DNA from: a bacterium
GTDB taxonomy: Bacteria > Patescibacteriota > Minisyncoccia > Phycocordibacterales > UBA9973
Assembly: GCA_027484965.1 (NCBI GenBank)
Contig: JAIXRY010000006.1
Location: 130,101-194,100, forward strand
Direction: 5' to 3'
Length of the DNA stretch: 64,000 bases
The notes below the pieces were generated by a model. That model ran no database searches. It was not told the origin of the DNA and saw only the letters and a list, made by a program, of their open reading frames with translations. Numbering within the stretch: position 1 is the first letter of the stretch; each line of letters starts with the position of its first letter. Shown here one piece after another: positions 26,134 through 60,177 of the stretch. The position numbers and the translations under genes were made by a program.

Positions 26134-26835
26134 ATGACAGCGATAAATATTTATTGTGACGAGAGTAATCATCTTGAAAGTGACAAAAAACCTATGGTCT
26201 TAGGGGCTCTTTATTGCCCTCGAGAAAAAACTAAAATCGTAAATAAAAGAATAAGAGAGATAAAAAAAGAACATGGATTGTCAGAGGATTTTGAAATTAA
26301 ATGGGCAAAAGTTAGTAGTAAAAGGATACCTTTTTATATAGATATTATAAGTTACTTTTTTGATCTCGATTATTTAGGAATAAGAGCTATAGTTGCCGAT
26401 AAAAGCAATCTTAATCACGCTAAATATAATCAAACTCACGATGAGTGGTATTACAAGATATATTATCAACTTTTAACAAAGATTATTCGCTCAGAATCAA
26501 CCTATAAAATTTGTTTAGACAAAAAAGATACTTTAGGGAAAGCTCGTATAGATAAATTAAGAGAATATTTATGTAATACAGAATTTGACTATAAAAAAGA
26601 TATTATTAAAGAAATTAGAGAAGTTCACTCTAGTCAAGTTCAAATGATACAAGTAATTGATCTCATAATAGGAGCTATACAATTTAACTTATGCAACAAG
26701 GGCGAGATTAAAGAAAGTAAGGCAAAAAGACAGATTGTCGAACATCTAAAAAAGAAAAGCGGTCGAACTCTTAGAGTAAATACTCTACCTTCCGAGTTTA
26801 AATTAAATTTATTTTTTTGGAATGCTCATGAATAA
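26134..26835 (+). CDS. DUF3800-family protein
   Basis: N-terminal INIYCDESNH resembles the YIDESG signature of DUF3800. Confidence 0.45.
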   Translation: MTAINIYCDESNHLESDKKPMVLGALYCPREKTKIVNKRIREIKKEHGLSEDFEIKWAKVSSKRIPFYIDIISYFFDLDYLGIRAIVADKSNLNHAKYNQTHDEWYYKIYYQLLTKIIRSESTYKICLDKKDTLGKARIDKLREYLCNTEFDYKKDIIKEIREVHSSQVQMIQVIDLIIGAIQFNLCNKGEIKESKAKRQIVEHLKKKSGRTLRVNTLPSEFKLNLFFWNAHE

Positions 26836-26845
26836 TTAGAATTTT

Positions 26846-27325
26846 ATGAATAATAACCCATCCTGGTTACCCACTTTGTTCACTCTATCTAGTTGTAGTG
26901 GTGATATAATATACTACACTGATAAACTTTATGAGATATTTCTTAATGATTTAGTGAACGGAAACCTGACTTTATCAAATAAAAAAATAATAATATCTTC
27001 AAAATTAGAAAATGATGGTCGCCATGAACGTTTTTGGCATACAATAACAGATCCACACAATCCTTCAATTTCTGATATTAAATTAGAAAGAGCAGAAAAG
27101 CTTCCATGGATTAAACCTATCATAATAAATGTTCCTAAGACTGAAATTCTTATTTATGAGAGAACTAAGAATAATGAGAAACGTCTTTATTTATTGCTCC
27201 CTAATAGTAATTATATTGTAGTTCTTTCAGTTAAAAAACAATCTTATTACTATGTTACAGCATTTCATATTGATTATTCATACAAAATAGCGGAGTATAA
27301 AAAGGAATACGAAAAATATAAGTAG
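26846..27325 (+). CDS. hypothetical protein (159 aa), likely co-transcribed with the DUF3800 gene
   Basis: 10-nt gap from upstream gene. Confidence 0.4.
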   Translation: MNNNPSWLPTLFTLSSCSGDIIYYTDKLYEIFLNDLVNGNLTLSNKKIIISSKLENDGRHERFWHTITDPHNPSISDIKLERAEKLPWIKPIIINVPKTEILIYERTKNNEKRLYLLLPNSNYIVVLSVKKQSYYYVTAFHIDYSYKIAEYKKEYEKYK

Positions 27326-27476
27326 AAACAAAAACAGCCCCGTGAAGGGCGAGTTTTCGGGCTCCTTCTACTAGAAGTAGATGAGATATTTACATTATAC
27401 CTAATTTTACATCTTTTTCAATAGTATCTGTGGAAAACCTTCTTGGATAAATTAAAATATTTTTAGACTCAAAAAA

Positions 27477-27869
27477 TTAATTATTTTTAAGTAATTTATC
27501 TATTTTATCCCAATCTTCTTCTTGTATATATATTTTTTTTACTTTTTCAAGTATAAATTCCTCATTTTTAATAAAATCATCTACGTATTTATAGTCTTTA
27601 ATGTAATTAACATCTTCTTCTTTTTCTTTATCAAAATGACAATCCAATAAAGAATTAATCAATCTCCCTAGTTTCCTTTTTTCTGCTTTTGTTGAATCTG
27701 ATGTATATGATGGGAGGTTTGACTCCTCAAGAACAGAGATAAACTCAGAAAACTTATGAACTCTTTTCCAAAGTCTTTTAATTTGAGCTTTTGGGGAATA
27801 GTAGTAATTATCTAAAATTAACCAAGTCATTAAAGAAACTACGATAACTAAAAATATTATTCTAATCAT
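27477..27869 (-). CDS. hypothetical protein with N-terminal TM helix (130 aa)
   Basis: ORF only. Confidence 0.4.
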   Translation of the reverse strand: MIRIIFLVIVVSLMTWLILDNYYYSPKAQIKRLWKRVHKFSEFISVLEESNLPSYTSDSTKAEKRKLGRLINSLLDCHFDKEKEEDVNYIKDYKYVDDFIKNEEFILEKVKKIYIQEEDWDKIDKLLKNN

Positions 27870-27873
27870 AAAT

Positions 27874-28040
27874 TATCTATTTTTATAATGATAATGATAC
27901 TGTCCAGTCTTTAATCCCCACTTAGCACAATTTGTACGACATGTATGACCACCTCTTTTATCTGTTCTTCCAGGATGAGCAAAAGATACACTTGGTGCAA
28001 TTAAGGCTACAGCTATTAAAATAAGTGTTATTTTTTTCAT
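27874..28040 (-). CDS. small secreted YHYH-motif protein (55 aa)
   Basis: Not in ORF track; MKKITLILIAVALIAPSVSFAHPGRTDKRGGHTCRTNCAKWGLKTGQYHYHYKNR: signal peptide plus HPGRTD...GGH and YHYH motifs. Confidence 0.5.
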
Positions 28041-28041
28041 A

Positions 28042-28266
28042 TTAATCAAATAATCCTTTTTCTTTTAAGCATTCTGAATAACTTTTACCAATAGAACCAT
28101 CCTTATTTTCGTAAATCATTTTATCCCAATTTATTTTTCGAGTACTAGATATTTTATGGCAATTTTTTTTAATTTGCATAGGTCTTAATTCATACCAATA
28201 AAAAGCACCTGAAATTAAGATAAAGATGATTATAATTATTCCTTTGAATTCTTTTATTTTTTTCAT
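28042..28266 (-). CDS. small membrane protein (74 aa)
   Basis: ORF with one TM. Confidence 0.35.
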   Translation of the reverse strand: MKKIKEFKGIIIIIFILISGAFYWYELRPMQIKKNCHKISSTRKINWDKMIYENKDGSIGKSYSECLKEKGLFD

Positions 28267-28282
28267 TATTTAATAGTTTAAA

Positions 28283-29011
28283 TTATTGTACAGATTTTTT
28301 ACTTCCAAAAGCTATGTACAAAACAACTTTATAGTAAAAAATTAAGATAAATATAAAAGAAATTATTATCACTATAAATGGTAATAAAATATTTATAGTG
28401 GTATTTAAAATAGATATTTTATATATATTCAAATCTTTTACTTCACTATTATAAAATAAAATATTTTCTGTTTTTATTATTTTATCAGAATTAATTACAG
28501 GAGTGCTGGATTTATTCCAATCATAATCACTGATAGAATGTTTTTTATCAACAATGTTTAAAACACTTAATTTAACACATTTAGCCTTGTGTTGGTAAAG
28601 ACCTTCCTTAAATTCTTTAATACCAACAGAAGTATCTCCAAAAACATAAGAATTAATATTAAGATCTTGTTCAATTTTTTCTATATTTTTAGAAATATCG
28701 CTAGAACAATAGTAATCTAAAGCTGAAATTGACCCCTGATCTGATATGTAGCCAATTTTATTGTTATATATAATTTCTTTATCTTCTGTATTTACAAGAT
28801 ATTTTATGTGTTTATATGTTTCAGCAACTCTTTCAGACAGTATATCTGTTTCTTTATATTTAATTATTTTATCATTACCATACAAATCTAAAGCTGTAAG
28901 AGTGGTTGTAATAATAAATAACAACACAAACAAAACAGAGAGTAGCCGGTGCCACCATTTTTTGTTTAAATCTAAGTCATTTCTTAATAGTTTTGTAAGA
29001 TGTTTTTTCAT
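28283..29011 (-). CDS. membrane protein (242 aa; N- and C-terminal TM helices)
   Basis: ORF; overlaps helicase gene end by 4 nt. Confidence 0.4.
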   Translation of the reverse strand: MKKHLTKLLRNDLDLNKKWWHRLLSVLFVLLFIITTTLTALDLYGNDKIIKYKETDILSERVAETYKHIKYLVNTEDKEIIYNNKIGYISDQGSISALDYYCSSDISKNIEKIEQDLNINSYVFGDTSVGIKEFKEGLYQHKAKCVKLSVLNIVDKKHSISDYDWNKSSTPVINSDKIIKTENILFYNSEVKDLNIYKISILNTTINILLPFIVIIISFIFILIFYYKVVLYIAFGSKKSVQ

Positions 29012-32000
29012 AAATTATTTTTAATATTATTTACTATAAGTTCTTTGTTATCATCACTCTCTATCCACTCTGAGTATCCAATTCTAAAGAATGACCAACC
29101 AGCACTTTCAAGTACTCGCTGTCTTTGTATATCACTTTCAACATAAATACCATAAGCTTCATCTATATGATCTTTAAAGTGAGTTGGGCCATCACATTCA
29201 ATAGCTAGTTGTTTACCAGTGCTTAAGTTTGTTGCAACAAAATCAATCTTGAAACCACAACTCTCTACTTGATTTTGGATAGTATACCCCTTACCCAGTT
29301 TTTTCTTTAATAGATGATAGAATTCTTCTTCAAAATAACTATCAAACTTCTTAAGTATAAGTTTTGAGGCTGATACCTCTCCGTTATCTCTAACATACTC
29401 TAGGTATTTTTTTATCCAAATGCCAGAAGGTACTTTTTCTACAGGTAAACTCAAAATACAATGTACTTGTAGCTTCGCACGAGAGAATGCAACATTTACT
29501 CTACCAGCATTTATATCAGCTTGTATATCACCAGTTTCGCCAGTGAGAGGGCGATACTGCCTTTTTTGAGAAGGATCTCTTATAACAAAAGAATATATAA
29601 TAATATCTTTCTCGTCTCCTTGTATACCTTCGATGACTGAAATTTTTAACCTATCCCCCTCTTTTATTCTGTTGTCTTCAAAGACTTTTCTAATCAGCTC
29701 TGCTTGATCGTTAAAGAATGTAAGAACACCAAAAGTCTTACCTTCGTACTTTGGATCATTAACCATTTCTTGATATAGACTTAAAGCTTTAAGAGCTTCA
29801 GCGTAGTTAGTATTATCACTTATTTCTCCTACACCAGTATTTTCAATATTATGAATAACCATTATGCGGTTAGTATCTTGATATGTTAAATATTTATTAT
29901 TTAAAGCTATCAAACGCTTACCTTTAGGCTCGTAAAAATATTTATTACTAAATCCTATAAGTTCCATTGGGGAACGATAATGATATTGAAGTATTTTTGG
30001 TATACCAAATCTAGTTTTTGCAATATCTAGAACAGATTGCACAGCTGTGCCTGTAGGTTTTATCTGTAGACTTTCTGGTACTTTGTAACGACTAGCAAGT
30101 TGATCAAATGCTTGATTTGATTTAAACATAACAGTACTATCTCTCATTTGTTCTGGATCTCCAACAAATATAGCTTTTTTTGCTCTGTACATTGAAGGTA
30201 TTGTATAAGCAATATTACACTGAGACGCCTCGTCAAAGACTACGTAATCAAACAAGTTAGCCACTAGGGGTATGAGACGACTAGCGTCGTCTAGATCCAT
30301 AATCCAAATAGGCACTATGTTTAATATAGTTTCAAAGTTTGAGGGATCGTTTTTTAATTTATCAAAAGTTTTAAAAGCTTTCTTTGATTTTTTAAATGCT
30401 TTTTGTAGCTCTTGAAGTTTTCTCCATATTTTTACCTGTGAGGCATTTTTATTTATATTGTCTTCAATAATTGCAGATAAGTATTGAGAAATGATTTCTT
30501 TTCTACTAATTTGATTCTTATCAGTTACTTCTTTTTTTAGTTTAGATATTTCATTAATTAGATTGTTTTGATTGTGATTTAAAGTAATTCTTTCTGATAG
30601 TTTCTCTAATAATTCTGAAACTGTAAGGGACTTATCTTTCAAAAAACTAAATAGATTAGAAATTTCATCTTTTGAGAGTTCTAGATTTGTCTCTATTTCT
30701 ACGAGCGACTTCTCTAATTTCTCGTTTTCAATAATTAGTTCCCAATATGTACAAAAACCTAGAAGTTCCTCTAGTTCTTTTATTGCATTATGTCTAGAAA
30801 TATCTTTTGATAAAACACTGTTTATTTCATCATATATCTCTTTAGGTAATCGACTTAAGTGTTCTTTAAGTCGTAACTTTCTACTAAAATTATTTATGTA
30901 TCTTCCTAGATTAAAAGATCTATCAAAACCTGTTTTTTTAACATCAACAATAACTGTTTTAATCAAATCTGAAAAAGTATAATCTGAAAAAATTTCTTTT
31001 TCTAATGAATATCTTTTTGAAATACTTTCTAAGTCTTTTAAGAATTTATTATTTTGAGATATTTTTTCTTCTGTTTTTAAATACAATCTATATAAATCAT
31101 CAGTAAAATTAGTTAATATAGTCTGCTCACTTATATCTGGAAGTCCTTCTAAAAAAATATACTCTTTTTTCTTTTCTTCAATTTCGTACACACTTCGTTG
31201 TAAAGAAATAACTTTATCTCTTTTAGTAAGACTATTATTAATATTTTGAGTGAAGTCATCTAAGTTTACACTATCTTTTGAAATACCTTTATAAGCACCA
31301 TATGTATCTAGTGAAGATAATTGAGAAGATATTGTGTCTGCCTCCTCATCATTTACTTGCTCAAACTTCACACTAGGAATATATCCGAACAATAGAGGTA
31401 CCTCAAGTGTCTTAAGTTTATCTTTTACAACACGCAAAGCTTGAGGTTTTTGACTTACGAAGAGTACTTTATTTTTATTAACAGCTAAGTGTGAGATTAT
31501 GTTAGAAATAGTCTCTGATTTACCTGTACCTGGAGGCCCTTGTATAATAGAGGCTTTATTGCCTAAAAGAGTGGTGGTGGCCCGTTGAAATTTGTCGTAT
31601 GGAAATGGAAAGTATAGAGCTTTTTCTTCACAAACATCAGAGTTTACATTCAAACCTTCTTCTGAAAACCAACCCGATAACGATGTATCCTCTAAAAGTT
31701 CTTCCTTTTCTCTTGATAGTTTTGTAAGATCTTCAACAAGAAAGAAGTTTGCTCGTGGAGCAAGTGTTAGTCTTAAATCTTCAAGATTAAACGATTCTTC
31801 ATTAAATGTCGCATCTGTCAGTCTTAGTTTTGCTTTAAGCATGTGCCACAAATCTAAAAATATTTGTTCAGAAGAAATAGGTATAGAAAATCCACCATCA
31901 CTTTCTAGTTTTACATAATCATTTAAAAACTCGTAAACCAAATCTTCTTTTTTGTAAGTTCTAAATATTTCATAAAGAGGAGGTAAATTGAGACGAACTT

Positions 32001-32577
32001 CAAAATCAACAGGTACTACAGAGTATATGTCTATATTGTTTTTATCCTTTTCTTTCTCAACTCTAACCGGCAGTGAAAATAAATAAAATTGTTTTGATAC
32101 TAATTTTACTACTTCTTTTTCCTCAGTATTTTGTTTAATTTCTATATCTTCTTCCGTTTCAACTACTGCTTCTTCTAATACCTCAAAATCAAAACGACCA
32201 AAACGTAGTATGGTCTCTTTAGTGAAAGTATCATTTTTAGCTTTGCTATACACTTCATCTATTTGTAAAGCAAGATTTTTTTCTAATTTGTATTGATCAG
32301 CTATTTCCTCAGTAACATCTTTAGGGTCTGTGTTGTAATAGCAGTCGAGATTAACAATTTCTTTTAAGTTACCATCTATATCTCCATTAATAAGACTAGG
32401 TAAAGAGAAGTATTTTTGTGGTAATTTAACATCAATTGCAGTACCTCTATTAAAACCAGTTGGTTTTGTAAGACTAAGATATCCTAGACAATATTTAATA
32501 TACGAATTAAGTGAGAAGTTCATAATGATAATTATAGCAAAAAAAACCCTAAAGATGGAGTAGAAAGAACGACTCAC
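29008..32577 (-). CDS. superfamily-1 (Upf1/DNA2-like) helicase with long coiled-coil insertion, fused to C-terminal DUF559 endonuclease-like domain
   Basis: Walker A IIQGPPGTGKSETISN, Walker B VVFDEASQ ~430 aa later, motif YRSPMELIGFSN (AAA_12), C-terminal GFKIDFVATN...AIECDGPTHF...ESAGWSFFRIGYSEW (DUF559/Vsr-like fold). Confidence 0.75.
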   Translation of the reverse strand: MSRSFYSIFRVFFAIIIIMNFSLNSYIKYCLGYLSLTKPTGFNRGTAIDVKLPQKYFSLPSLINGDIDGNLKEIVNLDCYYNTDPKDVTEEIADQYKLEKNLALQIDEVYSKAKNDTFTKETILRFGRFDFEVLEEAVVETEEDIEIKQNTEEKEVVKLVSKQFYLFSLPVRVEKEKDKNNIDIYSVVPVDFEVRLNLPPLYEIFRTYKKEDLVYEFLNDYVKLESDGGFSIPISSEQIFLDLWHMLKAKLRLTDATFNEESFNLEDLRLTLAPRANFFLVEDLTKLSREKEELLEDTSLSGWFSEEGLNVNSDVCEEKALYFPFPYDKFQRATTTLLGNKASIIQGPPGTGKSETISNIISHLAVNKNKVLFVSQKPQALRVVKDKLKTLEVPLLFGYIPSVKFEQVNDEEADTISSQLSSLDTYGAYKGISKDSVNLDDFTQNINNSLTKRDKVISLQRSVYEIEEKKKEYIFLEGLPDISEQTILTNFTDDLYRLYLKTEEKISQNNKFLKDLESISKRYSLEKEIFSDYTFSDLIKTVIVDVKKTGFDRSFNLGRYINNFSRKLRLKEHLSRLPKEIYDEINSVLSKDISRHNAIKELEELLGFCTYWELIIENEKLEKSLVEIETNLELSKDEISNLFSFLKDKSLTVSELLEKLSERITLNHNQNNLINEISKLKKEVTDKNQISRKEIISQYLSAIIEDNINKNASQVKIWRKLQELQKAFKKSKKAFKTFDKLKNDPSNFETILNIVPIWIMDLDDASRLIPLVANLFDYVVFDEASQCNIAYTIPSMYRAKKAIFVGDPEQMRDSTVMFKSNQAFDQLASRYKVPESLQIKPTGTAVQSVLDIAKTRFGIPKILQYHYRSPMELIGFSNKYFYEPKGKRLIALNNKYLTYQDTNRIMVIHNIENTGVGEISDNTNYAEALKALSLYQEMVNDPKYEGKTFGVLTFFNDQAELIRKVFEDNRIKEGDRLKISVIEGIQGDEKDIIIYSFVIRDPSQKRQYRPLTGETGDIQADINAGRVNVAFSRAKLQVHCILSLPVEKVPSGIWIKKYLEYVRDNGEVSASKLILKKFDSYFEEEFYHLLKKKLGKGYTIQNQVESCGFKIDFVATNLSTGKQLAIECDGPTHFKDHIDEAYGIYVESDIQRQRVLESAGWSFFRIGYSEWIESDDNKELIVNNIKNNL

Positions 32578-32590
32578 AAGACACTATTCT

Positions 32591-33112
32591 TTAGTATTTA
32601 AAAGCGGTACTTTTTTCAATTTTACTTAAATCAGATATATTTAAAATTTCATTTTTTGATTGTTTTTCTTTTAGATATTTACAGATAACTTCATCATCTT
32701 CTATCAAAACAATAAACTGTGGTAAAAAAGATTCTGAAAGAATTTTGTAAGCGCTTTTGCTCGGACAATGATTCATAACGAGACCTATATATCCTAACCA
32801 ATCAGGAAACTTAGTAACCACTTGAATATCTGTCAGCTTTGCTTCTACCACAATAGAGACTAATTTAATTTGATTTTCTTCACTTGTGTTTCTAAGGAAG
32901 TTACTATAATCATTCATTTCCTTTAGAGATGAGTTATTTTCTTTACCATTAGGCCAAAAAGAAGTATGGTCTGGATGCACACCTTGAATTAGTTTAGAAA
33001 AAGAAACTTTAAAAGCGTTGTGTCCACAAGTTGTACAATTTATATTCCAGCACCAATTATTTTGTGAGGCTATTTCACATAGGGCTACAAATGAGTTTCT
33101 TTGTTTTTTCAT
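32591..33112 (-). CDS. Cys-rich small protein (WCWNINCTTCGH), partner of the helicase-nuclease
   Basis: 13-nt gap to helicase gene. Confidence 0.45.
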   Translation of the reverse strand: MKKQRNSFVALCEIASQNNWCWNINCTTCGHNAFKVSFSKLIQGVHPDHTSFWPNGKENNSSLKEMNDYSNFLRNTSEENQIKLVSIVVEAKLTDIQVVTKFPDWLGYIGLVMNHCPSKSAYKILSESFLPQFIVLIEDDEVICKYLKEKQSKNEILNISDLSKIEKSTAFKY

Positions 33113-33147
33113 TATTGTTTATTTTTATTAATTTTCTATTATAAATT

Positions 33148-33180
33148 TTTAAGCTTTTCAACGCTTTGTAACGCTTTGTA
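33148..33180. promoter_or_regulatory. direct repeats (aacgctttgt)x3 plus nearby palindrome tagtagtttttactact in the helicase operon upstream region
   Basis: Seen directly; operator/iteron-like. Confidence 0.35.
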
Positions 33181-33318
33181 ACGCTTTTGAACCAAACTTT
33201 TTTCACTACTTTTTAGTAGTTTTTACTACTTTCTAATCACATTTTTTAATGTTAATTACTGTTAATTAATGTTTTCTATTGTTTTTGAAACAAGTATTTT
33301 GCAATATAAATTAATTTA

Positions 33319-33921
33319 TTAGACAACTTGTAAAAGTGTAGAGAATACGAAATGCATTCTATGGTTTTGAAACATGAAATTTGGATACATAAGCAACTCA
33401 AGAGCCATAATATATTCTTTGTTATAACCTATAAGATCGGCTATTTTATCTAAAAAACGTGCACCAACCGCATTGTTACCAATATTCAAAGGTTTGAACA
33501 TTAAACTATATATAGGATATGAGAGATAATCTTCGTATAGTTCATCAAATAACTCTTCTGCATTTAGAGAATATTTTTCTGTTGCATAAGATAATATATT
33601 TGATTTTAAGAATATATATTGTTCGTTTGTTAGATATTTATCTATTACAACACTTCTAAGTCTCTCTAAAATACATAAATTGGATACAAAAGTATATAAC
33701 TCAACTTTATTCCTTAATTCCCTATTATCTTCTTTAACATAGTGATAGAAAAGCTGATTTGTAAAGTCTAAAGACATACACGAAAGAATACCTGAAATAA
33801 TATTACTCTTTTCAATTAGAGCAGATTCAGAATTGTTTGAACCTTTAAGCTTTGAAATACCCTCTTCTATGTAGTACATTCTAAAACTATCTTTAATAGA
33901 CATTGATTTTTCTTTAGACAT
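33319..33921 (-). CDS. hypothetical protein (200 aa), third gene of a three-gene operon
   Basis: 4-nt gap to upstream gene. Confidence 0.45.
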   Translation of the reverse strand: MSKEKSMSIKDSFRMYYIEEGISKLKGSNNSESALIEKSNIISGILSCMSLDFTNQLFYHYVKEDNRELRNKVELYTFVSNLCILERLRSVVIDKYLTNEQYIFLKSNILSYATEKYSLNAEELFDELYEDYLSYPIYSLMFKPLNIGNNAVGARFLDKIADLIGYNKEYIMALELLMYPNFMFQNHRMHFVFSTLLQVV

Positions 33922-33924
33922 ATA

Positions 33925-34536
33925 TTATTTCTTACCTGAAGATTTAATTTCATGAAAACGATCTATTATCATATATCCAAGTGCAACCAATCTATCAGAA
34001 GGTTTAATCCATAGTTGTTTTTGAAATTTATCAGAATTGAAACTAAAAGTATTTAAAGAATTTTCTAAAATAGATAATTTATTATCTATCACCTCTTTTT
34101 TATATGTATAGTAATTTATAGACTCTCGCAGACCATCCATCAACATAATTCTATAGTCTTGGTCTTTACAGTGTTTTGTTATGTTTGGGAATTTTTCAGG
34201 ATTCAATTCATCAAGATATGTAAAGATATAATTCTCTTCTTCCTGTATATTTTTATATTCTTCATCTCTTTCACCATTTACATATCCTTCATCGTAAATA
34301 TGCTTTACACTTTCTTTTAGAGAAGAAACTATAGACTTGGTTATAATAAAAAATATAAGGAATATTGAAGCTAGAGATATAGAGCCAAATATCAATATAT
34401 TTTTAATACTAGTAAAATCAGAAGAGTTTATAACTAGAAAAGATATAGCGAGACAAGGTATTATCAGAAATAAAAATACAAATGATAGTATGTTTAATTT
34501 CTTTATTGTTCTATCTACTCCTCTTAAAATATACAT
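33925..34536 (-). CDS. membrane protein (203 aa, two N-terminal TM helices)
   Basis: ORF. Confidence 0.45.
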   Translation of the reverse strand: MYILRGVDRTIKKLNILSFVFLFLIIPCLAISFLVINSSDFTSIKNILIFGSISLASIFLIFFIITKSIVSSLKESVKHIYDEGYVNGERDEEYKNIQEEENYIFTYLDELNPEKFPNITKHCKDQDYRIMLMDGLRESINYYTYKKEVIDNKLSILENSLNTFSFNSDKFQKQLWIKPSDRLVALGYMIIDRFHEIKSSGKK

Positions 34537-34567
34537 ATTTGTATTCTTAGCTAATGTTATTAATTAT

Positions 34568-35173
34568 TTATGTAAAATTACCAGCAAGTTTTACTTTTTT
34601 AATTTTCTCAATATGATCAAATGGTCTAACAAACTTAGAACGATCTACAACAATTTCTTCATATTTTTTTGCAATTCTAACACCTAGAGTACCCCCTATT
34701 TGATCTTCAATTGGTTTTGATAGTCCGAAAGGAAAATCTGAGTCAAAAGAATTTACACCGTATCCAATCAAAGACCTACTAAAAATCTCATGGAAATCAC
34801 TGAAAACATATCCTTCAGGAATATTTATTGATCTACGAGGATGGTACATGTCTAAATAAAGAATGTCCCACACATTTCCTCCACAGGAAACGACTTCGTA
34901 TATATCTATATTTCCATCAGATCCAAGTCTGTGAAATATAAGCCCACCTTCATCAGTACGCAGTCTATTTAGATATTTAATTTCACCAATTGGCCCATTA
35001 ACGGGTACAGGATTTGTAGCAACTTTTCCAAATTCCCCTTTTGCGTTTGGTAGAACATTACAATCTAGACCATTAATAGATTCTTTACTTAGAAAATCTG
35101 GAAATCTTTCTAGATCTTTGATTTGATCTTCAATAGATTCGTCTTTAAATTTTTTCTTAAAAAAATTAAACAT
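34568..35173 (-). CDS. hypothetical protein (201 aa), first gene of the three-gene operon
   Basis: ORF. Confidence 0.45.
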   Translation of the reverse strand: MFNFFKKKFKDESIEDQIKDLERFPDFLSKESINGLDCNVLPNAKGEFGKVATNPVPVNGPIGEIKYLNRLRTDEGGLIFHRLGSDGNIDIYEVVSCGGNVWDILYLDMYHPRRSINIPEGYVFSDFHEIFSRSLIGYGVNSFDSDFPFGLSKPIEDQIGGTLGVRIAKKYEEIVVDRSKFVRPFDHIEKIKKVKLAGNFT

Positions 35174-35414
35174 ATTTTATAGTTTATTTAACAATTAAAA
35201 ATCACAATCTTGTTCCCATCGGCAAGAAGCACTGTTATCATGTTGCGGTAATGAATCTCTAAAACTTTGTGAAAATATAGATAAAAATAAAAATATAATA
35301 TTTACAAAAACTATTACAAACATAACAACATTATCGAATGATATAGATTTTAATAATTTATTATTTTTCATAAAAGTTTAAAGAATTAGCTAATAACCCT
35401 GCAATAGTGTTCCA

Positions 35415-35600
35415 AACAAAAATCCCATCACAAGGGTGATAGCTTTCGCTATCCATGCAAGTTTCCTTGCACGGCCGATCAGAGCAAGCCCTTTATGATG
35501 GGGTTTTTGCTCTGATCGGACTTTCGACCATATCCTATATATAAATATAGGGGTTAGGTCTCGTATTAAGTTGTAGTGTAATTATATATTATTTCTTATA
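35415..35600 (+). ncRNA. candidate structured 5' leader/cis-regulatory RNA, copy A
   Basis: ~75-80% identical to the reverse complement of 43030..43255; perfect 13-bp stem ccgatcagagcaa/ttgctctgatcgg and stem gatagc/gctatc whose counterparts in copy B carry fully compensatory changes; ends ~12 nt before ATG 35612. Confidence 0.55.
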
Positions 35601-35611
35601 TAATTTAAAAT

Positions 35612-36421
35612 ATGAAGAAAGCTACACCAAAGAATAGTAATATTCAATCAAATAAAACAAAAGAGTACAGAAAACTAAAACTTAAAGATTTTAACAAAAG
35701 CGAATTAGAGAAAACTTTATTGTTACTAAAACAATTAAAAAGACCTGGTATTGGTCATTACAAAATAAAAGAGAATGAGATACAAGGATTAACTAATGCA
35801 GATATTACATGGATTCTTAATGTAATAAATCCTATATATTCTGACCGTATAGATTCTATAGATATAACTGAATATGAAAAATATGCAGAAGGAGTAGAGG
35901 TGATTAAAACAAAAGATAAAATTACAATTAAAACTCCTGCTAATTTAATAGCAAATCCTGTATTTTTCTTCAGTGGTTTAGAGGATGGTGGTGGTAGATA
36001 TCTAGAAAGAACTTTTATGGTTGGGCCCCTACTTGATTCAGCTTTAGGTGATATTGAAAAATTATTAAAAAAATCAAAATATTATTTAACCATAAAAGAT
36101 GATATTTTTTATTATAACAACTCGCCTTTGAAAATTAGTAATCAAACTATTTTATATAGAGTTATAAAATGCGTATATGATTATTTTGAAGGTAAAAATG
36201 GTGAAATTCAATTTAAAGATCTACATAAAGAATTGAAGAAAATTAAAGGATTTAGTAGAAAAACAAAACCAGAATTATCTTTACTAATAAGACAAAATCT
36301 TACAAGTAAAAGTTCTGGTATTGGTAAGAAGATAGGATTAAGAAAAAGTGATGTAAATAATTTATTTAAAACAGAAGATTCAAAGAAATTAATATTTAAA
36401 AATGAAAAAGTAAACGATTAA
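35612..36421 (+). CDS. hypothetical protein (269 aa)
   Basis: ORF directly downstream of leader copy A. Confidence 0.5.
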   Translation: MKKATPKNSNIQSNKTKEYRKLKLKDFNKSELEKTLLLLKQLKRPGIGHYKIKENEIQGLTNADITWILNVINPIYSDRIDSIDITEYEKYAEGVEVIKTKDKITIKTPANLIANPVFFFSGLEDGGGRYLERTFMVGPLLDSALGDIEKLLKKSKYYLTIKDDIFYYNNSPLKISNQTILYRVIKCVYDYFEGKNGEIQFKDLHKELKKIKGFSRKTKPELSLLIRQNLTSKSSGIGKKIGLRKSDVNNLFKTEDSKKLIFKNEKVND

Positions 36422-37576: not shown

Positions 37577-39370
37577 ATGGACAAAAACAATTTTGACGCA
37601 GAAAAATTAAATTATATTATCTACTGTCGTAAATCAAGTGATACAGAGGATAAACAAGTTCAATCACTTGAGACTCAACATAGAGAATTAACAGATTATG
37701 CATTACGCAATAATCTTAATGTTGTAAAAATTATTCAAGAAAGTAAAAGTGCTTTCACTGTTGGTAGACAAGGTTTTGAAGAAATGCTTAAACTTATAAA
37801 GAGTAAAAAAGCAAATGCAATTTTAGTTGTTCGAGCAAATCGTATTTCAAGAAATGTTATGGATTCTGCATATATTATTTCTCTTATGGATGAGAAAATG
37901 TTGATGTATGTTAGAACTCCTTCATCTTCATGTTATACCTGTTTCGGTAACGATAGATTTATGCTTGGTCTAGAATTTATTATTTCCAAGAAAGATAGTG
38001 ATGATAAAGGTGAAGCTGTAAAAGAAGGACAAAAAACAAAAGCGTTAAAAGGAACCCCTCACGGATTAGCTTCTTTAGGCTTTCTTAATGATCGATCAGA
38101 AGAAAAAGGAAATAGAAAATGGTTAGTAGATCCAGAGAGACTATGGAAAATAGAGAAGCTTTTAAAAATGTTCCTGACTGGTACATACTCTGCTGGTAAA
38201 CTACATAGATACGCGATAAATGAGCTCAAATTAACCACTGTTAGTAGAAAAAGAAGTGGTGGTGCTCTAATAGTAAGTTCCCGTATTTATGAAATTTTAA
38301 AAGATCCTATCTATGCAGGATTCTTTGTTTATGGAGAAAAAAGATACGAATTAGATAAAAATTTACCTAGACTTATAACAGAATCTGAACACAATAAAAT
38401 TAAACAATTACTCTCTAGAAATAACATTCCTAAATCACAACACCATGAAGCTACATATTCTGGATTTATACAGTCTGCTGAAGGAAACTTTATGGGGCCT
38501 GATACTAAGTTTCAAGTAATATGTGATTGTAAGAAAAAGTTTGCATACAGAAATAAAAATCACTGTCCTCAATGTGGAATTAACATTGATCAAATGGAGA
38601 GTCCTAAATACTTGGATTACACTCACTACTACAATGTTAAGAGAAAGAAGGCTTCTCTACCATATAAGTCTATTTCAGAAAAAGATATTCTAAAAGAAAT
38701 GGTTGAATATATTGACCAAAATTTACAGTTTTCCAACGATCTCTTGGAGTGGTCTAAAAAAAATATACACGAAATGAAAGACAAAGAAGTGAGCGAAAAA
38801 GTTTTAATATCAAAAGACAGAGAGAACAGAAAAGAAGAATATGAATTAAAGAAATCTAAATTGAGAGGGTTACTTCGTGATGATAAAATTATAGAAGACG
38901 ATTATAAAATTGATCTAGCACTATTGAATAAAGAATATGCTGATATAAACATAGATGCGCAGAGTGTCGATTGGTATCAAGAGATGATGGATATCACTGA
39001 TTTAACTCAAGGTGTTATAGAAGTATTACAAAACGGCTCCTTTCAAGCAAAAAGAGATATACTTTCAAAGCTTGGTTCGAACCTAGTATGGAACGACGAA
39101 AAACTTAGTATTTACAACAGAAAATCAATAGAAGTACTTGTGAAAGGGATAAAAGGTATTAAGTCAGAATTTCCAAAGTTCGAACCTAAATTAAGCTTTG
39201 CAGAACAAGGCTTAAATGAAAAAACTAGCGAGTTTTCGCCAGTTTTTTCTACAATGCTCCATCTAGTGGACAAGTTCAGAACTGCTAATTGGACTGGTAT
39301 TAAAAGTGATTTACAGTTTAGTGGTGTTTTAGAGCTGTTAACTTCAGAATCAATAGATTGCTTACTTTAG
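37577..39370 (+). CDS. large serine recombinase (resolvase catalytic domain + recombinase domain + zinc ribbon)
   Basis: YIIYCRKSSDTEDKQVQSLETQ catalytic-Ser motif; CDCKKKF...HCPQCG zinc ribbon; 597 aa. Confidence 0.8.
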   Translation: MDKNNFDAEKLNYIIYCRKSSDTEDKQVQSLETQHRELTDYALRNNLNVVKIIQESKSAFTVGRQGFEEMLKLIKSKKANAILVVRANRISRNVMDSAYIISLMDEKMLMYVRTPSSSCYTCFGNDRFMLGLEFIISKKDSDDKGEAVKEGQKTKALKGTPHGLASLGFLNDRSEEKGNRKWLVDPERLWKIEKLLKMFLTGTYSAGKLHRYAINELKLTTVSRKRSGGALIVSSRIYEILKDPIYAGFFVYGEKRYELDKNLPRLITESEHNKIKQLLSRNNIPKSQHHEATYSGFIQSAEGNFMGPDTKFQVICDCKKKFAYRNKNHCPQCGINIDQMESPKYLDYTHYYNVKRKKASLPYKSISEKDILKEMVEYIDQNLQFSNDLLEWSKKNIHEMKDKEVSEKVLISKDRENRKEEYELKKSKLRGLLRDDKIIEDDYKIDLALLNKEYADINIDAQSVDWYQEMMDITDLTQGVIEVLQNGSFQAKRDILSKLGSNLVWNDEKLSIYNRKSIEVLVKGIKGIKSEFPKFEPKLSFAEQGLNEKTSEFSPVFSTMLHLVDKFRTANWTGIKSDLQFSGVLELLTSESIDCLL

Positions 39371-43029: not shown

Positions 43030-43255
43030 AAAAAACTTAAGTTAAGAACAATTTATGATATAATGATTACACAACTCAATAAGAGACCTACCCCTTAGAG
43101 AATCTCTAAGGCACGGTCGCAAGATAGTCCAACCAAGACAAAAACCCCATCATATAGGGCTGTCTTGGTTGGCTACATCGGGAAACTGGTGTAAAGAGCG
43201 CAAGCTCTTACCCTTGTGGTGGGATTTTTGTCGCCCAAATACACAAAGGATTATA
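43030..43255 (-). ncRNA. candidate structured 5' leader/cis-regulatory RNA, copy B (inverted relative to copy A)
   Basis: Stem ccaaccaagaca/tgtcttggttgg with conserved loop gccctatatgatggggttt; ends ~20 nt before start 43009. Confidence 0.55.
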
Positions 43256-43273
43256 ACCCAACCAAGCAATCCT

Positions 43274-44377
43274 ATGAAAAATAAAATTAACATTGTTTTT
43301 GTATTTTTACTCCTAATAATTTTAATACCTCAAGTAACATATGCTTCGTGGTGGAATCCATTAACGTGGAAAATATTTAAAAAAACACCACAACAGCAAT
43401 CTATTCAAATCACTACTCCTAATTCTTCTACAAAAGATGATGAATTAACTACAGAAAATTCAGAATGGAGCTTTTCTAAAAATACTAATAAATCAAAATC
43501 TATTGAATTTTTAGAAACATTAAAAAAAGAAAAAAATACCAGTGACGTAAAAAGTAAAAAAGACACTTTTACTCAAAGCGATATAGATCAGTATAAATCA
43601 AAGGCAACTGAAATAATCGAACTCATTCAAAAAGATAAAACGGATTTTGAAAATCTTAAAAAGATAATGGTGGAGCATAAGCAAAAAACCACTGATACAG
43701 CTAATGACCTTTTTAAGAAGTATAGTGATCTCTATGATTCTGCTTCGTTATCAAGAAGCAATACAGATAAAGACTATTTAATGGCTGGTAAAAAATATGT
43801 TTCATCTAGTCTTGACGAGGTGCTTAAGAAAATTGAAAAATATAATTCTCTGATTGATTTTTATACTTTCAATTCTGTTCAAAATAAAGATGTCAGTGAA
43901 GTTATTGAATCTAATATAAATATACTTAAAAAATGTACAGGAATGTCTCTTGAGCAGTGGTCAAAAGATTCCGATTGCACTATGCAGTCTTTAGAGTTTG
44001 CTACAGAAGATCACACCTCCAATCAGAAGACACTGAGCGATGCACAAAAATCACTTAAAGAAATTGATACTCTTTCGCTTAATCTCATTAAGAGCAAACT
44101 AGATTCCATTGATGACGACTTAACTTCAAGAAAAGAGAGTTTATCTTTGTCAGACCAAATACAAGCACGAGGCAGTAACTTTACTATTCCACCATATCAA
44201 GCTCCTGTTACAGCACCAAAATTAACCTGCACAACAACAGCTACTGGGGGTATTTTTAATAAAGAATATAAAACAACTTGTTTACCAGAGACACCTAGAA
44301 CACCAGAACAAATATGTGCTAGTAAAAAAGCACACGCTGCTGCAATAGGATCATACACTAAGGTGATTTGTGATTAA
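43274..44377 (+). CDS. secreted hypothetical protein
   Basis: Start moved to MKNKINIVFVFLLLIILIPQVTYA (signal peptide) because upstream extension overlaps the conserved leader element. Confidence 0.5.
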   Translation: MKNKINIVFVFLLLIILIPQVTYASWWNPLTWKIFKKTPQQQSIQITTPNSSTKDDELTTENSEWSFSKNTNKSKSIEFLETLKKEKNTSDVKSKKDTFTQSDIDQYKSKATEIIELIQKDKTDFENLKKIMVEHKQKTTDTANDLFKKYSDLYDSASLSRSNTDKDYLMAGKKYVSSSLDEVLKKIEKYNSLIDFYTFNSVQNKDVSEVIESNINILKKCTGMSLEQWSKDSDCTMQSLEFATEDHTSNQKTLSDAQKSLKEIDTLSLNLIKSKLDSIDDDLTSRKESLSLSDQIQARGSNFTIPPYQAPVTAPKLTCTTTATGGIFNKEYKTTCLPETPRTPEQICASKKAHAAAIGSYTKVICD

Positions 44378-44384
44378 GTAAATT

Positions 44385-44672
44385 ATGTATATGAAAACGC
44401 AGAAAGAAAAAATTAAGAATATATTCAAATTTCTGTTTTATTTTCTAATTTTTCCAGTAATACCTATTGGTTTAATGTATCTAATTAGATCTAATATTGG
44501 ATGGTATTCAAATGATGGAGAATATAATTTATTAAACGACAAAATAATATTGGCTGGATATTTTCTGTTTGTATGGCTGTCTTGGTTTTATTGGGAGGAA
44601 AGAAAAAAAGTAAAAATATTAAAGAATGTATTAGAAATACATAACATAAATTACAGTATGTTTATTGATTAA
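44385..44672 (+). CDS. small membrane protein (95 aa)
   Basis: ORF. Confidence 0.4.
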   Translation: MYMKTQKEKIKNIFKFLFYFLIFPVIPIGLMYLIRSNIGWYSNDGEYNLLNDKIILAGYFLFVWLSWFYWEERKKVKILKNVLEIHNINYSMFID

Positions 44673-44677
44673 ATATT

Positions 44678-44869
44678 ATGAAATACGAACCAATAAAAAT
44701 ACTAGATACTGAGATAAACAAGGAACACTTCCCAATACTTTATGATTGGGCTTTAAAAGATAAGGAGGGTTTAGAACAAAGAATTCTATCTGACCTACAA
44801 CCAAATGAGAAACCCATAACTCTTTTGGTAATGCTTGAGATGGACTTAGAAGAACAACAATTAAAATAA
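44678..44869 (+). CDS. hypothetical small protein (63 aa)
   Basis: ORF. Confidence 0.3.
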   Translation: MKYEPIKILDTEINKEHFPILYDWALKDKEGLEQRILSDLQPNEKPITLLVMLEMDLEEQQLK

Positions 44870-44870
44870 T

Positions 44871-45188
44871 ATGGCTTCAGTATCTAAATTAAAATGTAAT
44901 AATAGCGAATGCTCGTTCCAGACAGTAAGGGAGAGTAACTTTCCTATTTGGAAGTCAGATAGTCCTAAGGTAATGCGTAAATTGCCTGTTGGAATAAGAT
45001 TTAAAGCGTTTGTGGCTGGATATATAACAAGACAGTATTGCGTTGAGTGTAAAGCATTACAGCCCTTTTTAAAGGGTTCTGATATGTGTTTAATGTGCAA
45101 GAAAGAAGGGCTTTTTCTACAGGAAGGAAGCACTTGCCCATCTTGTAATACTGGAGTAATTGAATCAATGAATGATTTGTGGTTCTAA
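44871..45188 (+). CDS. Cys-rich zinc-ribbon-like protein (105 aa)
   Basis: CNNSEC, CVEC, CLMC, CPSC pairs. Confidence 0.4.
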   Translation: MASVSKLKCNNSECSFQTVRESNFPIWKSDSPKVMRKLPVGIRFKAFVAGYITRQYCVECKALQPFLKGSDMCLMCKKEGLFLQEGSTCPSCNTGVIESMNDLWF

Positions 45189-60117: not shown

Positions 60118-60177
60118 GGATCGAACCTACGACCAATCGATTAACAGTCGATTGCTCTACCGCTGAGCTACAGGGGA
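60106..60177 (-). tRNA. tRNA-Asn (anticodon GUU)
   Basis: Sense strand UCCCCUGUAGCUCAGCGGUAGAGCAAUCGACUGUUAAUCGAUUGGUCGUAGGUUCGAUCCCUACCGGGGGAG: cloverleaf with U1-A72 as in E. coli tRNA-Asn, anticodon loop CUGUUAA, T-loop UUCGAUC. Confidence 0.88.

What the first reader, a model, noticed from the sequence alone, without database searches (positions are those of the whole stretch)
33319..35173. Compact three-gene operon of unknown proteins (201 aa soluble, 203 aa two-TM membrane, 200 aa soluble) inside the defence island
- Gaps of 31 and 3 nt indicate an operon.
- No recognisable motifs in any of the three.
- Located between the helicase-nuclease module and the structured-leader element.
- A soluble + membrane + soluble trio of ~200-aa proteins is a frequent layout of membrane-effector abortive-infection systems.
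Basis: inference. Interest (0 to 1): 0.5.

Follow-up and report, generated by a model that had tools for sequence, protein, structure and literature searches.

The report
Mosaic cargo genes, not one system
The three tightly packed unknown genes are real, but they are a patchwork: a widespread, unnamed mobile gene swapped in next to a lineage-specific membrane-plus-soluble gene pair, all sitting behind a structured RNA leader in a mobile island of a tiny uncultured bacterium.

Summary
Observation confirmed. Three minus-strand ORFs of 201, 203 and 200 aa have gaps of 31 and 3 nt. The middle one has two TM segments. None matches Pfam, NCBIfam, PHROGs or PADLOC.

- gA (201 aa) belongs to a family of at least 109 protein clusters. 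It occurs in 20 species of 10 or more phyla, 9 IMG/VR contigs and 5 plasmids. gB or gC is never beside it.
- gB-gC recur as a pair in related contigs without gA. All recurrences that extend far enough lie behind a LOOT RNA (RF03000).
- Alignment with a sister contig shows that a 58-aa ORF plus gA form an 875-bp cassette. It is swapped in between the LOOT 3' end and the gB start.

gA gives a confident AF2 model (pLDDT 93.7) with no PDB or BFVD neighbour and an invariant His/Arg/Ser/Tyr set. It lies in tRNA- or recombinase-linked islands beside R-M, helicase-nuclease and RT/GmrSD genes. In Proteobacteria it lies in an Hsp70/AAA+ cluster next to Tn7-like TnsE.

gC is an orphan under strong purifying selection (dN/dS about 0.1).

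Functions remain unknown. A conflict-related role is inferred from context only.

The parts
35581..35609 (-). Promoter-like site (TTTAAA, 17 nt, TATAAT) about 20 nt upstream of the LOOT RNA
   Evidence: It matches the consensus at 10 of 12 positions. The -10 TATAAT is conserved in 4 of 5 aligned LOOT loci. The consensus match alone is not evidence of function.
35438..35560 (-). LOOT RNA (Rfam RF03000), the 'structured leader'
   Evidence: cmscan gives 91.4 bits against a gathering score of 46.4, over the full model 1-121.
35417..35430 (-). Conserved 3' extension of LOOT: a UGAUGGG tail followed by A, U5 and G. The tail can pair with the P2 apical loop CCCAUCA (35496-35502).
   Evidence: The pairing is kept in 5 of 5 LOOT copies, with one compensatory C-G to U-A change. 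A terminator-like hit also lies at 35442-35425.
34541..35415 (.). 875-bp swapped cassette (58-aa ORF + gA). Homology to sister locus L003 stops right after the LOOT U-tract and resumes 4 nt before the gB ATG.
   Evidence: blastn of L003 against the window aligns L003 3724-3916 with window 35609-35416, and L003 5339-5573 with window 34540-34309. Nothing aligns in between.
35195..35371 (-). Small ORF of 58 aa with one TM segment. It is the first ORF after LOOT. Its reality is uncertain.
   Evidence: ORF list and hydropathy. Similarity to the 65-aa TM protein of L003 is weak (E 0.002). It has no family hits.
34568..35173 (-). gA: 201-aa soluble protein. It belongs to a widespread unannotated family with the motifs NPxPVNGxxGEIxYL, FHRLGS, YHPRRS and FPFG.
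   Evidence: 109 homologous clusters. Alignment A1 gives the invariant columns N59, G63, Y67, H81, F147 and P148. AF2 gives pLDDT 93.7. There is no structural neighbour. There are no Pfam or PDB sequence hits.
33925..34536 (-). gB: 203-aa membrane protein with an N-terminal 2-TM hairpin and a faster-evolving C-terminal domain of about 130 aa
   Evidence: Hydropathy. The only homologues are in related contigs: P0111/L034, the 89-aa truncated form in L003, the 199-aa form in L035 (70% identity) and L036. dN/dS is 0.31-0.33.
33319..33921 (-). gC: 200-aa soluble protein predicted to be all-alpha. It is a lineage-restricted orphan that is highly conserved (96-98% aa).
   Evidence: phmmer against 1.84 billion representatives finds only its own cluster plus one spurious FN3-repeat hit. 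dN/dS is 0.07-0.12. Single-sequence AF2 gives pLDDT 51 and an all-helical model.
33113..33318 (.). Conserved non-coding spacer after gC. It holds the hairpin AGTAG-N6-CTACT and three tandem AAAGCGTTAC units (33160-33188).
   Evidence: It is about 92% identical to L003 as far as about 33146, where homology ends. The repeat has 2 matches against 0.04 expected.
29008..33112 (-). Downstream genes on the same strand: a 173-aa unknown (32591-33112) and a 1189-aa SF1 helicase + MTES_1575 nuclease (29008-32577)
   Evidence: Pfam AAA_11, AAA_12 and MTES_1575. PADLOC PDC-S37 at 218 bits and Hhe at 111 bits. An orthologue (43% identity) lies directly upstream of a gA homologue in L037.
37577..39370 (+). 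Large serine recombinase of the element that carries the operon
   Evidence: Pfam Resolvase and Recombinase. A 61%-identical recombinase lies next to a gA homologue and a 91%-identical tRNA-Asn in Parcubacteria locus L009.

Best explanation
The three genes are real and probably co-transcribed. They are not one three-component system. They form the proximal part of a LOOT-RNA-led cargo operon. The operon lies in a serine-recombinase integrative element within a tRNA-Asn-linked island. The host is a low-GC bacterium, probably Parcubacteria or another CPR lineage. The operon is a mosaic of two independent modules.

Module 1 is an 875-bp cassette holding a 58-aa TM ORF and gA.
- It was swapped in immediately after the LOOT 3' end.
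- gA is a self-contained, horizontally mobile single-domain protein of an undescribed family.
- The family is found in many phyla, in tRNA- or recombinase-linked islands, on plasmids and on prophage-like contigs.
- In Proteobacteria it is one gene of an 11-gene Hsp70/AAA+ cluster that sits next to Tn7-like TnsE.
- Its confident compact alpha/beta model has no known structural relative.
- Its invariant polar set is N59, Y67 and H81, with R82, S85, D90, E93, Y110, H111, R113, R114 and S115 at 90% or more.
- From this I infer an enzyme or small-ligand (phosphate or nucleotide) binding pocket.
- The C-terminal TPR, ANK or REC fusions seen in homologues would supply partner recognition or regulation.
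- I infer that gA acts on its own in inter-genome conflict, either as defence or counter-defence.

Module 2 is gB-gC, a lineage-restricted pair.
- gB is a 2-TM membrane anchor with a fast-evolving cytoplasmic tail.
- gC is a very conserved all-alpha soluble protein.
- The 3-nt spacing suggests translational coupling. Its recurrence suggests the two proteins act together as a membrane-anchored complex.
- The pair is a regular component of LOOT-led operons.

Shown: gene reality, the mosaic structure, the lack of co-conservation, the distribution and the contexts. Inferred: co-transcription, complex formation and any conflict-related function.
For: Reality of the genes and selection on them.

gA is independent of gB-gC.
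- gA has 109 homologous clusters.
- It occurs in 20 species across Saccharibacteria, Falkowbacteria, Parcubacteria, Omnitrophota, Bacteroidota, Verrucomicrobiota, Planctomycetota, Actinomycetota and delta-, beta- and gamma-Proteobacteria.
- It occurs on 9 IMG/VR contigs and 5 plasmids.
- blastp and tblastn with gB, gC, w173 and w242 find none of them beside any gA homologue.

gB-gC recur without gA: L003, L035, L036 and L034.

LOOT lies upstream of gB-gC in 3 of the 3 loci that extend far enough. It lies near no other gA homologue.

Cassette junctions.

gA structure and conservation.

gA fusions to TPR and REC (Pfam) and to ANK-like repeats (read by eye).

Mobile-element and defence contexts of gA homologues:
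- large serine recombinases and tRNAs;
- type I R-M;
- an orthologous helicase-nuclease, a reverse transcriptase and GmrSD;
- SocA/Panacea;
- a Tn7-like TnsE-adjacent Hsp70/AAA cluster.

The window's island holds three serine recombinases, two C5 methyltransferases, an NgoFVII-like restriction enzyme and two KAP NTPases.
Against: - No experiment or transcript data exist, so the operon status is inferred from spacing only.
- A terminator-like U-tract sits between LOOT and the genes. Transcription from the LOOT promoter may therefore stop before them.
- gA and the helicase-nuclease co-occur in two related lineages (window and L037). Full independence of gA from its neighbours is therefore not proven.
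- Only 4-5 contigs carry gB-gC, all closely related. 'Conserved pair' rests on a shallow sample.
- The biochemical reading of gA rests only on residue conservation.
- Neighbours of gA homologues also include ordinary housekeeping genes. No formal test of defence-island enrichment was done.
Confidence: 0.62

Rival explanations
1. gA, gB and gC form one three-component abortive-infection system: a soluble sensor, a 2-TM membrane effector and a soluble regulator.
For: The genes share a strand and have 31-nt and 3-nt gaps. gB has a 2-TM hairpin. The genes lie in an island with R-M, KAP NTPase and helicase-nuclease genes.
Against: gA is never found with gB or gC elsewhere. gB-gC occur without gA. 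The gA segment is a discrete swapped cassette. No PADLOC model hits any of the three.
Confidence: 0.07
2. gA is an accessory subunit or regulator of the neighbouring Hhe/PDC-S37-like SF1 helicase + MTES_1575 nuclease. The relevant unit would then be gA plus the helicase-nuclease, not the trio.
For: In L037 a 64%-identical gA lies 21 nt downstream of a 1397-aa helicase-nuclease. That protein is 43% identical over nearly its full length to the window's 1189-aa protein. In the window the two lie on one strand, 2 kb apart.
Against: No helicase-nuclease homologue lies near gA in the other 20 genome loci. None appears in the Pfam or annotation listings of the further contexts. The gene order differs between the two cases, and both come from closely related island types.
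Confidence: 0.12
3. gB-gC, and the LOOT-led operon in general, encode core envelope or host-interaction functions of the mobile element or of the episymbiotic CPR cell. Examples are surface remodelling, exclusion or transfer. They would not be immunity genes, and gA would be an unrelated hitch-hiker.
For: Other LOOT-led operons start with a signal-peptide coiled-coil protein, followed by several small TM proteins and a zinc-ribbon protein before gB-gC. gC is far more conserved (96-98%) than its flanking genes.
Against: No homology links these genes to any envelope, secretion or transfer family. The distal genes of the same strings are defence-like: a helicase-nuclease in the window and an SNF2-like helicase plus Eco57I-like methyltransferase in L035.
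Confidence: 0.2
4. gB is a holin-like or toxin-like small membrane protein and gC is its antagonist, making a two-gene toxin-antitoxin or lysis-type pair.
For: gB has a 2-TM hairpin with a charged tail. The 89-aa form in L003 has holin-like size. The 3-nt spacing suggests coupled synthesis.
Against: No endolysin, toxin or antitoxin family matches either gene. L003 keeps an intact gC next to a truncated gB, which a strict addiction pair would not predict. gB at 203 aa is large for a holin.
Confidence: 0.12

Closest known systems
Variable cargo or defence regions of tRNA-targeting integrative elements with large serine recombinases (defence islands)
   Same: The locus lies in an island ending at tRNA-Asn. 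The island holds three large serine recombinases, two C5 methyltransferases, a restriction enzyme, two KAP NTPases and an Hhe-like helicase-nuclease. Cargo differs between sister elements on the same backbone.
   Different: The cargo string is led by a structured RNA (LOOT). The swap junctions sit exactly at the RNA's 3' end and at the next gene's start. No att repeats were found. The cargo genes belong to no described family.
Kiwa (KwaA membrane protein + KwaB) and other membrane-plus-soluble defence pairs
   Same: gB-gC is a small multi-TM protein followed by a soluble protein, in a defence-rich neighbourhood.
   Different: Neither gB nor gC hits the KwaA or KwaB models, or any other PADLOC model. 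gB has 2 TM segments. No phenotype is known.
Cargo clusters of Tn7-like transposons next to tnsE
   Same: In Shewanella and Aeromonas plasmids a gA homologue lies in a conserved 11-gene cluster directly beside TnsE. The same cluster occurs in Thiobacillus and Accumulibacter genome loci and in 6 IMG/VR contigs.
   Different: In the window gA stands without any of those partners (Hsp70-like, AAA+, PG-binding, RDD). The cluster itself matches no known defence system, apart from a generic IetA/TRIP13-like AAA hit.
Riboswitch or attenuator-type 5' leaders (comparison for the LOOT RNA in front of the operon)
   Same: The elements are a conserved promoter, a structured RNA and a U-tract. In three other copies, a segment just before the start codon can pair with the P2 3' strand, and it covaries with P2.
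   Different: Rfam lists LOOT as an sRNA gene and no ligand is known. The copy in front of this operon lacks the alternative pairing (-7.5 kcal/mol, reached by 16% of shuffles).

Membership tests
Single multi-gene defence system (any PADLOC-catalogued or candidate system) | The components are co-conserved as a unit across genomes | tested here: not met
   gA homologues in 20 genomes, 9 viral contigs, 5 plasmids and about 8 metagenome contigs never have gB or gC beside them. gB-gC occur without gA.
Single multi-gene defence system (any PADLOC-catalogued or candidate system) | Proteins match the profile HMMs of a known system | tested here: not met
   PADLOC gives 0 families for gA, gB and gC at E up to 1.
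Single multi-gene defence system (any PADLOC-catalogued or candidate system) | Protects a host against phage, or aborts infection | not testable with these tools
   This needs cloning and phage challenge.
Operon | Same strand with short intergenic gaps and no internal terminator | tested here: met
   The gaps are 21, 31 and 3 nt. The only terminator-like site in 32400-35800 lies upstream, at the LOOT 3' end.
Operon | A single transcript covers the genes | not testable with these tools
   No transcript data are available.
LOOT RNA (Rfam RF03000), the upstream element | Covariance-model score at or above the gathering threshold, with a full-length match | tested here: met
   91.4 bits against 46.4, over model positions 1-121.
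gA family (undescribed; defined here from alignment A1) | The motifs NPxPVNGxxGE, FHRLGS, YHPRRS and FPxG, and the invariant residues N59, G63, Y67, H81, F147 and P148 | tested here: met
   The window protein carries all of them. phmmer E-values against homologues run from 1e-96 to 1e-13.
Kiwa (KwaA/KwaB) | A KwaA-type membrane protein plus a KwaB (DUF4868) partner | tested here: not met
   Neither gB nor gC hits any PADLOC or Pfam model.
Holin-endolysin lysis cassette | A small holin (usually under 150 aa, 2-3 TM) next to a muralytic enzyme | tested here: not met
   gB is 203 aa. gC has no lysozyme, amidase or peptidase domain hit.
Type II toxin-antitoxin pair | Both partners match known toxin or antitoxin families and are always retained together | tested here: inconclusive
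   There are no family hits. L003 has a truncated gB with an intact gC, but only 4-5 loci are available.

The most novel reading that the evidence does not exclude
gA founds a new protein fold or enzyme family that acts as a self-sufficient conflict module (defence or counter-defence). It would have spread across at least 10 bacterial phyla on integrative elements, plasmids, Tn7-like transposons and prophage-like contigs. It stands alone in CPR bacteria and is recruited into an uncharacterised 11-gene Hsp70/AAA+ cargo cluster in Proteobacteria. In this window it would be plugged, as a cassette, into an operon led by the LOOT RNA. Other LOOT copies show signs of being a cis-acting translational switch.
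Probability: 0.25. Interest if true: 0.7.

Novelty: new variant of a known kind. Interest (0 to 1): 0.42.

Why it matters
The result removes a false lead, since the trio is not a new three-gene Abi system. It replaces that lead with three concrete and testable objects.

1. gA is an unannotated protein family that is widely distributed and clearly mobile. It has a high-confidence predicted structure with no solved relative and an obvious candidate active site. This makes it a good target for structural and phage-defence or anti-defence screening.

2. gB-gC is a lineage-specific membrane-plus-soluble pair that marks LOOT-led operons in CPR mobile elements. Mobile elements and immunity in these bacteria are poorly known.

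3. The orphan LOOT RNA gains a genomic setting. It sits behind a conserved promoter at the head of exchangeable cargo operons, which suggests what it might regulate.

Tried and rejected
Family searches
- Pfam, NCBIfam, PHROGs and PADLOC on all three proteins gave nothing significant.
- Pfam on 73 gA family members gave only scattered hits at E of 0.013 or weaker.
- A PDB sequence search with the gA profile gave 0 hits at E up to 10. gB and gC gave only noise.

Fold searches with the gA model
- Foldseek against PDB: best E 0.8.
- BFVD: best E 0.067.
- The afdb50 library was unavailable.

gC
- phmmer against 1.84 billion representatives found only its own cluster. The second hit, P0113, is an FN3-repeat protein scoring by summed weak repeats, and I rejected it.
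- Single-sequence AF2 of gC was too poor to use (pLDDT 51).
- An apparent disruption of gC in L035 turned out to be an N-run in the assembly, not a pseudogene.

Collection scans
- gC in viral contigs: none.
- gA in GenBank phages: none.
- An exact-pattern scan for LOOT in metagenomes found one contig with LOOT at its end, which was uninformative. The viral scan found none.

Other
- A search for tRNA-derived att repeats at the recombinase ends found nothing convincing.
- I considered a link between the Hsp70/AAA cluster and CoCoNuT/McrBC systems and dropped it. No McrB-type gene was detected in the cluster, and the paper describes different architectures.
- The local terminator hairpin at 35442-35425 is not conserved in other LOOT copies. 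The conserved feature is the loop-tail pairing.
Full report
**1. Observation**

The window holds three minus-strand ORFs.
- gA: 34568-35173, 201 aa.
- gB: 33925-34536, 203 aa.
- gC: 33319-33921, 200 aa.
- They are separated by 31 nt and 3 nt.

Hydropathy gives two TM-like segments in gB (about residues 10-42 and 43-74). It gives none in gA or gC.

The ORFs are not chance. At this base composition, 200 stop-free codons have P of about 2e-8.

None of the three proteins reaches significance in Pfam, PADLOC, NCBIfam or PHROGs.

- Downstream lie a 173-aa unknown and a 1189-aa SF1 helicase with an MTES_1575 nuclease domain. The latter hits PADLOC PDC-S37 at 218 bits and Hhe at 111 bits.
- Upstream, the 'structured leader' is a LOOT RNA (RF03000, 91.4 bits against a gathering score of 46.4) at 35438-35560 on the same strand.
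- A 10-of-12 promoter-like site precedes the LOOT RNA.
- A 58-aa single-TM ORF (35195-35371) lies between LOOT and gA. A 58-codon ORF is not improbable by chance, so it remains uncertain.

**2. Setting**

The left part of the window is housekeeping: pyruvate kinase, a DUF4147/MOFRL protein and enolase.

From about 25 kb to 60 kb the window is an island with these genes:
- three large serine recombinases, at 37577-39370, 50443-52026 and 58546-60117;
- two C5 methyltransferases;
- an NgoFVII-like restriction enzyme;
- two KAP NTPases;
- a DUF3800 protein;
- the helicase-nuclease.

The last recombinase overlaps tRNA-Asn (60105-60177) on the opposite strand.

A Parcubacteria genome (L009) carries a 61%-identical recombinase abutting a 91%-identical tRNA. 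It also has a gA homologue 3 kb away. I infer a CPR or Parcubacteria-like host and tandem accretion of integrative elements at tRNA-Asn. I found no att repeats.

**3. Are the three genes co-conserved? No.**

gA has 109 homologous clusters. The family occurs in:
- 20 species-level genomes from Saccharibacteria, Falkowbacteria, Parcubacteria, Omnitrophota, Bacteroidota, Verrucomicrobiota, Planctomycetota, Actinomycetota and delta-, beta- and gamma-Proteobacteria;
- 9 IMG/VR contigs;
- 5 plasmids of cultured bacteria.

Searching those loci with gB, gC, the 173-aa protein and the 242-aa protein found none of them next to any gA homologue.

gB and gC are nearly orphans.
- gB has one partial relative.
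- For gC, an exhaustive phmmer search of 1.84 billion representatives found only its own cluster and one spurious FN3-repeat hit.

The few related contigs are informative.

| Locus | Gene order after LOOT (where visible) |
|---|---|
| L003 | LOOT, 216-aa signal-peptide protein, 65-aa TM, 156-aa zinc ribbon, 89-aa gB (TM hairpin only), gC (97%) |
| L035 | LOOT, 247, 71, 159, 86, 155-aa zinc ribbon, full-length gB (70%), gC, SNF2-like helicase, Eco57I-like methyltransferase |
| L036 | gB C-terminus, gC (96%), with the same 3-nt gap |
| L034 | zinc ribbon, gB-like |

So gB-gC is a recurring pair and gA is not part of it.

LOOT precedes gB-gC in all three loci that extend far enough. It lies near no other gA homologue.

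**4. Mosaic junctions**

I aligned L003 to the window by blastn.
- Homology covers the recombinase side and LOOT, down to window position 35416. That position is just after the LOOT U-tract.
- Homology is absent across 34541-35415, which holds the 58-aa ORF and gA.
- It resumes 4 nt before the gB ATG at 75% identity.
- It rises to 92% through gC and the spacer beyond it, and ends at about 33146.

The 58-aa ORF plus gA therefore form an 875-bp replacement cassette. It stands where L003 has its 216-aa, 65-aa and 156-aa genes.

gB is itself mosaic. A 47-residue stretch is identical between the window and L035, while the rest of the protein is about 65% identical.

Selection analysis shows that both genes are functional.

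| Gene | dN/dS | dS |
|---|---|---|
| gC | 0.07-0.12 | about 0.2 |
| gB | 0.31-0.33 | 0.6-0.7 |

**5. What is gA?**

The family alignment A1 (73 sequences) shows these conserved motifs:
- NPIPVNGxxGEIKYLNRL;
- FHRLGS;
- (D/H)MYHPRRS;
- FPFG.

Invariant columns are N59, G63, Y67, H81, F147 and P148. Residues R82, S85, D90, E93, W102, Y110, H111, R113, R114 and S115 are conserved at 90% or more.

AF2 with this alignment gives pLDDT 93.7 and pTM 0.89. The model has two N-terminal helices, a helix followed by an antiparallel beta sheet, a long ordered loop region carrying YHPRRS and FPFG, and C-terminal helices.

No structural relative was found.
- Foldseek against PDB: best E 0.8.
- BFVD: best E 0.067.
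- The AlphaFold-database library could not be searched.

Some homologues carry extra domains: C-terminal TPR repeats, a receiver domain, or ankyrin-like repeats plus a TM segment (the ankyrin and TM assignments are by eye).

The cluster of invariant His, Arg, Ser and Tyr residues suggests an enzyme or a phosphate or nucleotide-binding pocket. This is inference only.

**6. gA contexts**

No partner gene is conserved across the family. Recurrent themes are mobile elements and immunity genes.

- **Recombinases and tRNAs.**
  - Large serine recombinases lie nearby in the window, L004, L009 and L041.
  - tRNA genes lie within about 2.5 kb in L005, L006, L007, L038, L039/L040 and L043/L044.
  - In L004 and L009 the tRNA lies about 5 kb away, at the recombinase end.
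- **Restriction-modification.** Type I R-M genes are adjacent in L005 and L041.
- **L037.**
  - gA lies 21 nt after a helicase-nuclease that is 43% identical to the window's.
  - Proteins that look HEPN-like and DUF3800-like by eye follow it.
  - A reverse transcriptase and GmrSD come after those.
- **L043.** SocA/Panacea and NACHT-like genes lie nearby.

The only conserved neighbourhood is proteobacterial.
- Its gene order is 124 aa, Hsp70-like (830 aa), AAA+ (478 aa), PG-binding (481 aa), 676 aa, gA, 164 aa, 349 aa, 217 aa, RDD membrane protein and 95 aa.
- It occurs in Thiobacillus and Accumulibacter genome loci and in 6 IMG/VR contigs.
- On Shewanella and Aeromonas plasmids it lies directly beside TnsE of a Tn7-like element.
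- PADLOC recognises only a generic IetA/TRIP13-like AAA domain in it.

gA is absent from GenBank phage genomes.

**7. Expression**

All five LOOT copies I hold share a 7-nt tail (UGRURGG) just 3' of the Rfam model.
- The tail can pair with the P2 apical loop (CCYAUCA).
- The pairing holds in 5 of 5 copies and includes one compensatory C-G to U-A change.
- A U5G run follows it.

In three copies (window 43085-43209, L003 and L035), a segment 3-6 nt before the first ORF's ATG repeats the P2 5' strand.
- It can pair with the P2 3' strand at -14.4 to -15.1 kcal/mol. None of 500 shuffles reaches that energy.
- It covaries with P2.
- This points to a cis-acting switch that occludes the translation start.

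The copy in front of gA-gB-gC lacks this pairing (-7.5 kcal/mol, reached by 16% of shuffles). That fits the swap junction lying right after the U-tract.

Whether transcription from the LOOT promoter reads through into gA-gB-gC cannot be decided here.

**8. Verdict**

The operon-like arrangement is plausible. The interpretation as a three-component membrane-effector Abi system is not supported, and its stated refutation criterion is met.

The best reading is a mosaic cargo string with two parts:
- a mobile stand-alone gene (gA) of an undescribed family with a confident model that has no known structural relative;
- a lineage-specific membrane-plus-soluble pair (gB-gC) that belongs to LOOT-led operons of CPR mobile elements.

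Any role in defence or counter-defence is inferred from context. Interest is moderate. The trio as such is ordinary island cargo, but gA and the LOOT setting are worthwhile leads.

Noticed in passing
window 35417-35430 and 35496-35502 (-); also window 43085-43235 (+), L003 3773-3920, L035 6708-6850, L033 60-206 (-): LOOT RNA has a conserved 3' extension outside the 121-nt Rfam model. A UGRURGG tail pairs with the P2 apical loop CCYAUCA in 5 of 5 copies, with one compensatory C-G to U-A change. A U5G run follows. This looks like a pseudoknot or terminator-like end.
   Followed up: partly
window 43236-43278 (+); L003 3930-3965; L035 6865-6890: In three LOOT copies the 9-13 nt just upstream of the first ORF's ATG repeat the P2 5' strand. 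They can pair with the P2 3' strand at -14.4 to -15.1 kcal/mol, which 0 of 500 shuffles reach. The segment covaries with P2. This suggests LOOT is a cis-acting translational switch. The feature is absent from the copy upstream of the finding's operon.
   Followed up: partly
window 35416-35592 vs 43055-43231: The two LOOT regions form an inverted repeat (72% identity over 184 nt). It brackets a 7.5-kb segment that holds a large serine recombinase, a weak HEPN/AbiU2-like ORF and a KAP NTPase. I did not test whether this segment can invert.
   Followed up: no
window 37577-39370, 50443-52026, 58546-60117, tRNA-Asn 60105-60177: Three large serine recombinase genes all point toward tRNA-Asn. The last ORF overlaps the tRNA on the opposite strand. 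The same recombinase-tRNA overlap occurs in L004 and L009. This suggests tandem integration at one tRNA. No att repeats were found.
   Followed up: partly
L030 13-11652; L047 1017-12643 (Shewanella plasmid NZ_CP091834.1); L048 (Aeromonas plasmid NZ_AP026371.1): A conserved 11-gene cluster holds, among its genes, an Hsp70-like protein (830 aa), an AAA+ protein, a PG-binding protein, a gA homologue and an RDD membrane protein. It lies next to Tn7-like TnsE on two plasmids. It also occurs in Thiobacillus and Accumulibacter genome loci and in 6 IMG/VR contigs. It matches no known system apart from a generic AAA hit.
   Followed up: partly
window 33113-33318: The spacer after gC is conserved with L003 (about 92%). 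It contains a hairpin (AGTAGTAAAAACTACT) and three tandem AAAGCGTTAC units at 33160-33188. Homology between the two loci ends just beyond them. The spacer could be a terminator, a protein-binding site or a recombination junction.
   Followed up: partly
window 48080-48604 vs 50818-51232: A 174-aa ORF resembles the central part of the nearby 527-aa serine recombinase (65% nt identity over 418 nt). It is probably a recombinase gene fragment left by rearrangement.
   Followed up: no
L037 199-10195 compared with window 26134-35173: A related metagenome contig repeats much of the window's gene repertoire in a different order. It has the helicase-nuclease orthologue, gA, proteins that look HEPN-like and DUF3800-like by eye, a reverse transcriptase and GmrSD. 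This hints at a shared, reshuffled island gene pool in these bacteria.
   Followed up: partly
window 43276-45188 (+): The operon behind the second LOOT copy starts with a 367-aa signal-peptide coiled-coil protein, a 95-aa 2-TM protein, a 63-aa ORF and a 105-aa zinc-ribbon protein. It resembles L035's 86-aa protein by eye. This has the same architecture as the LOOT-led operons of L003 and L035, but it lacks gB-gC.
   Followed up: no
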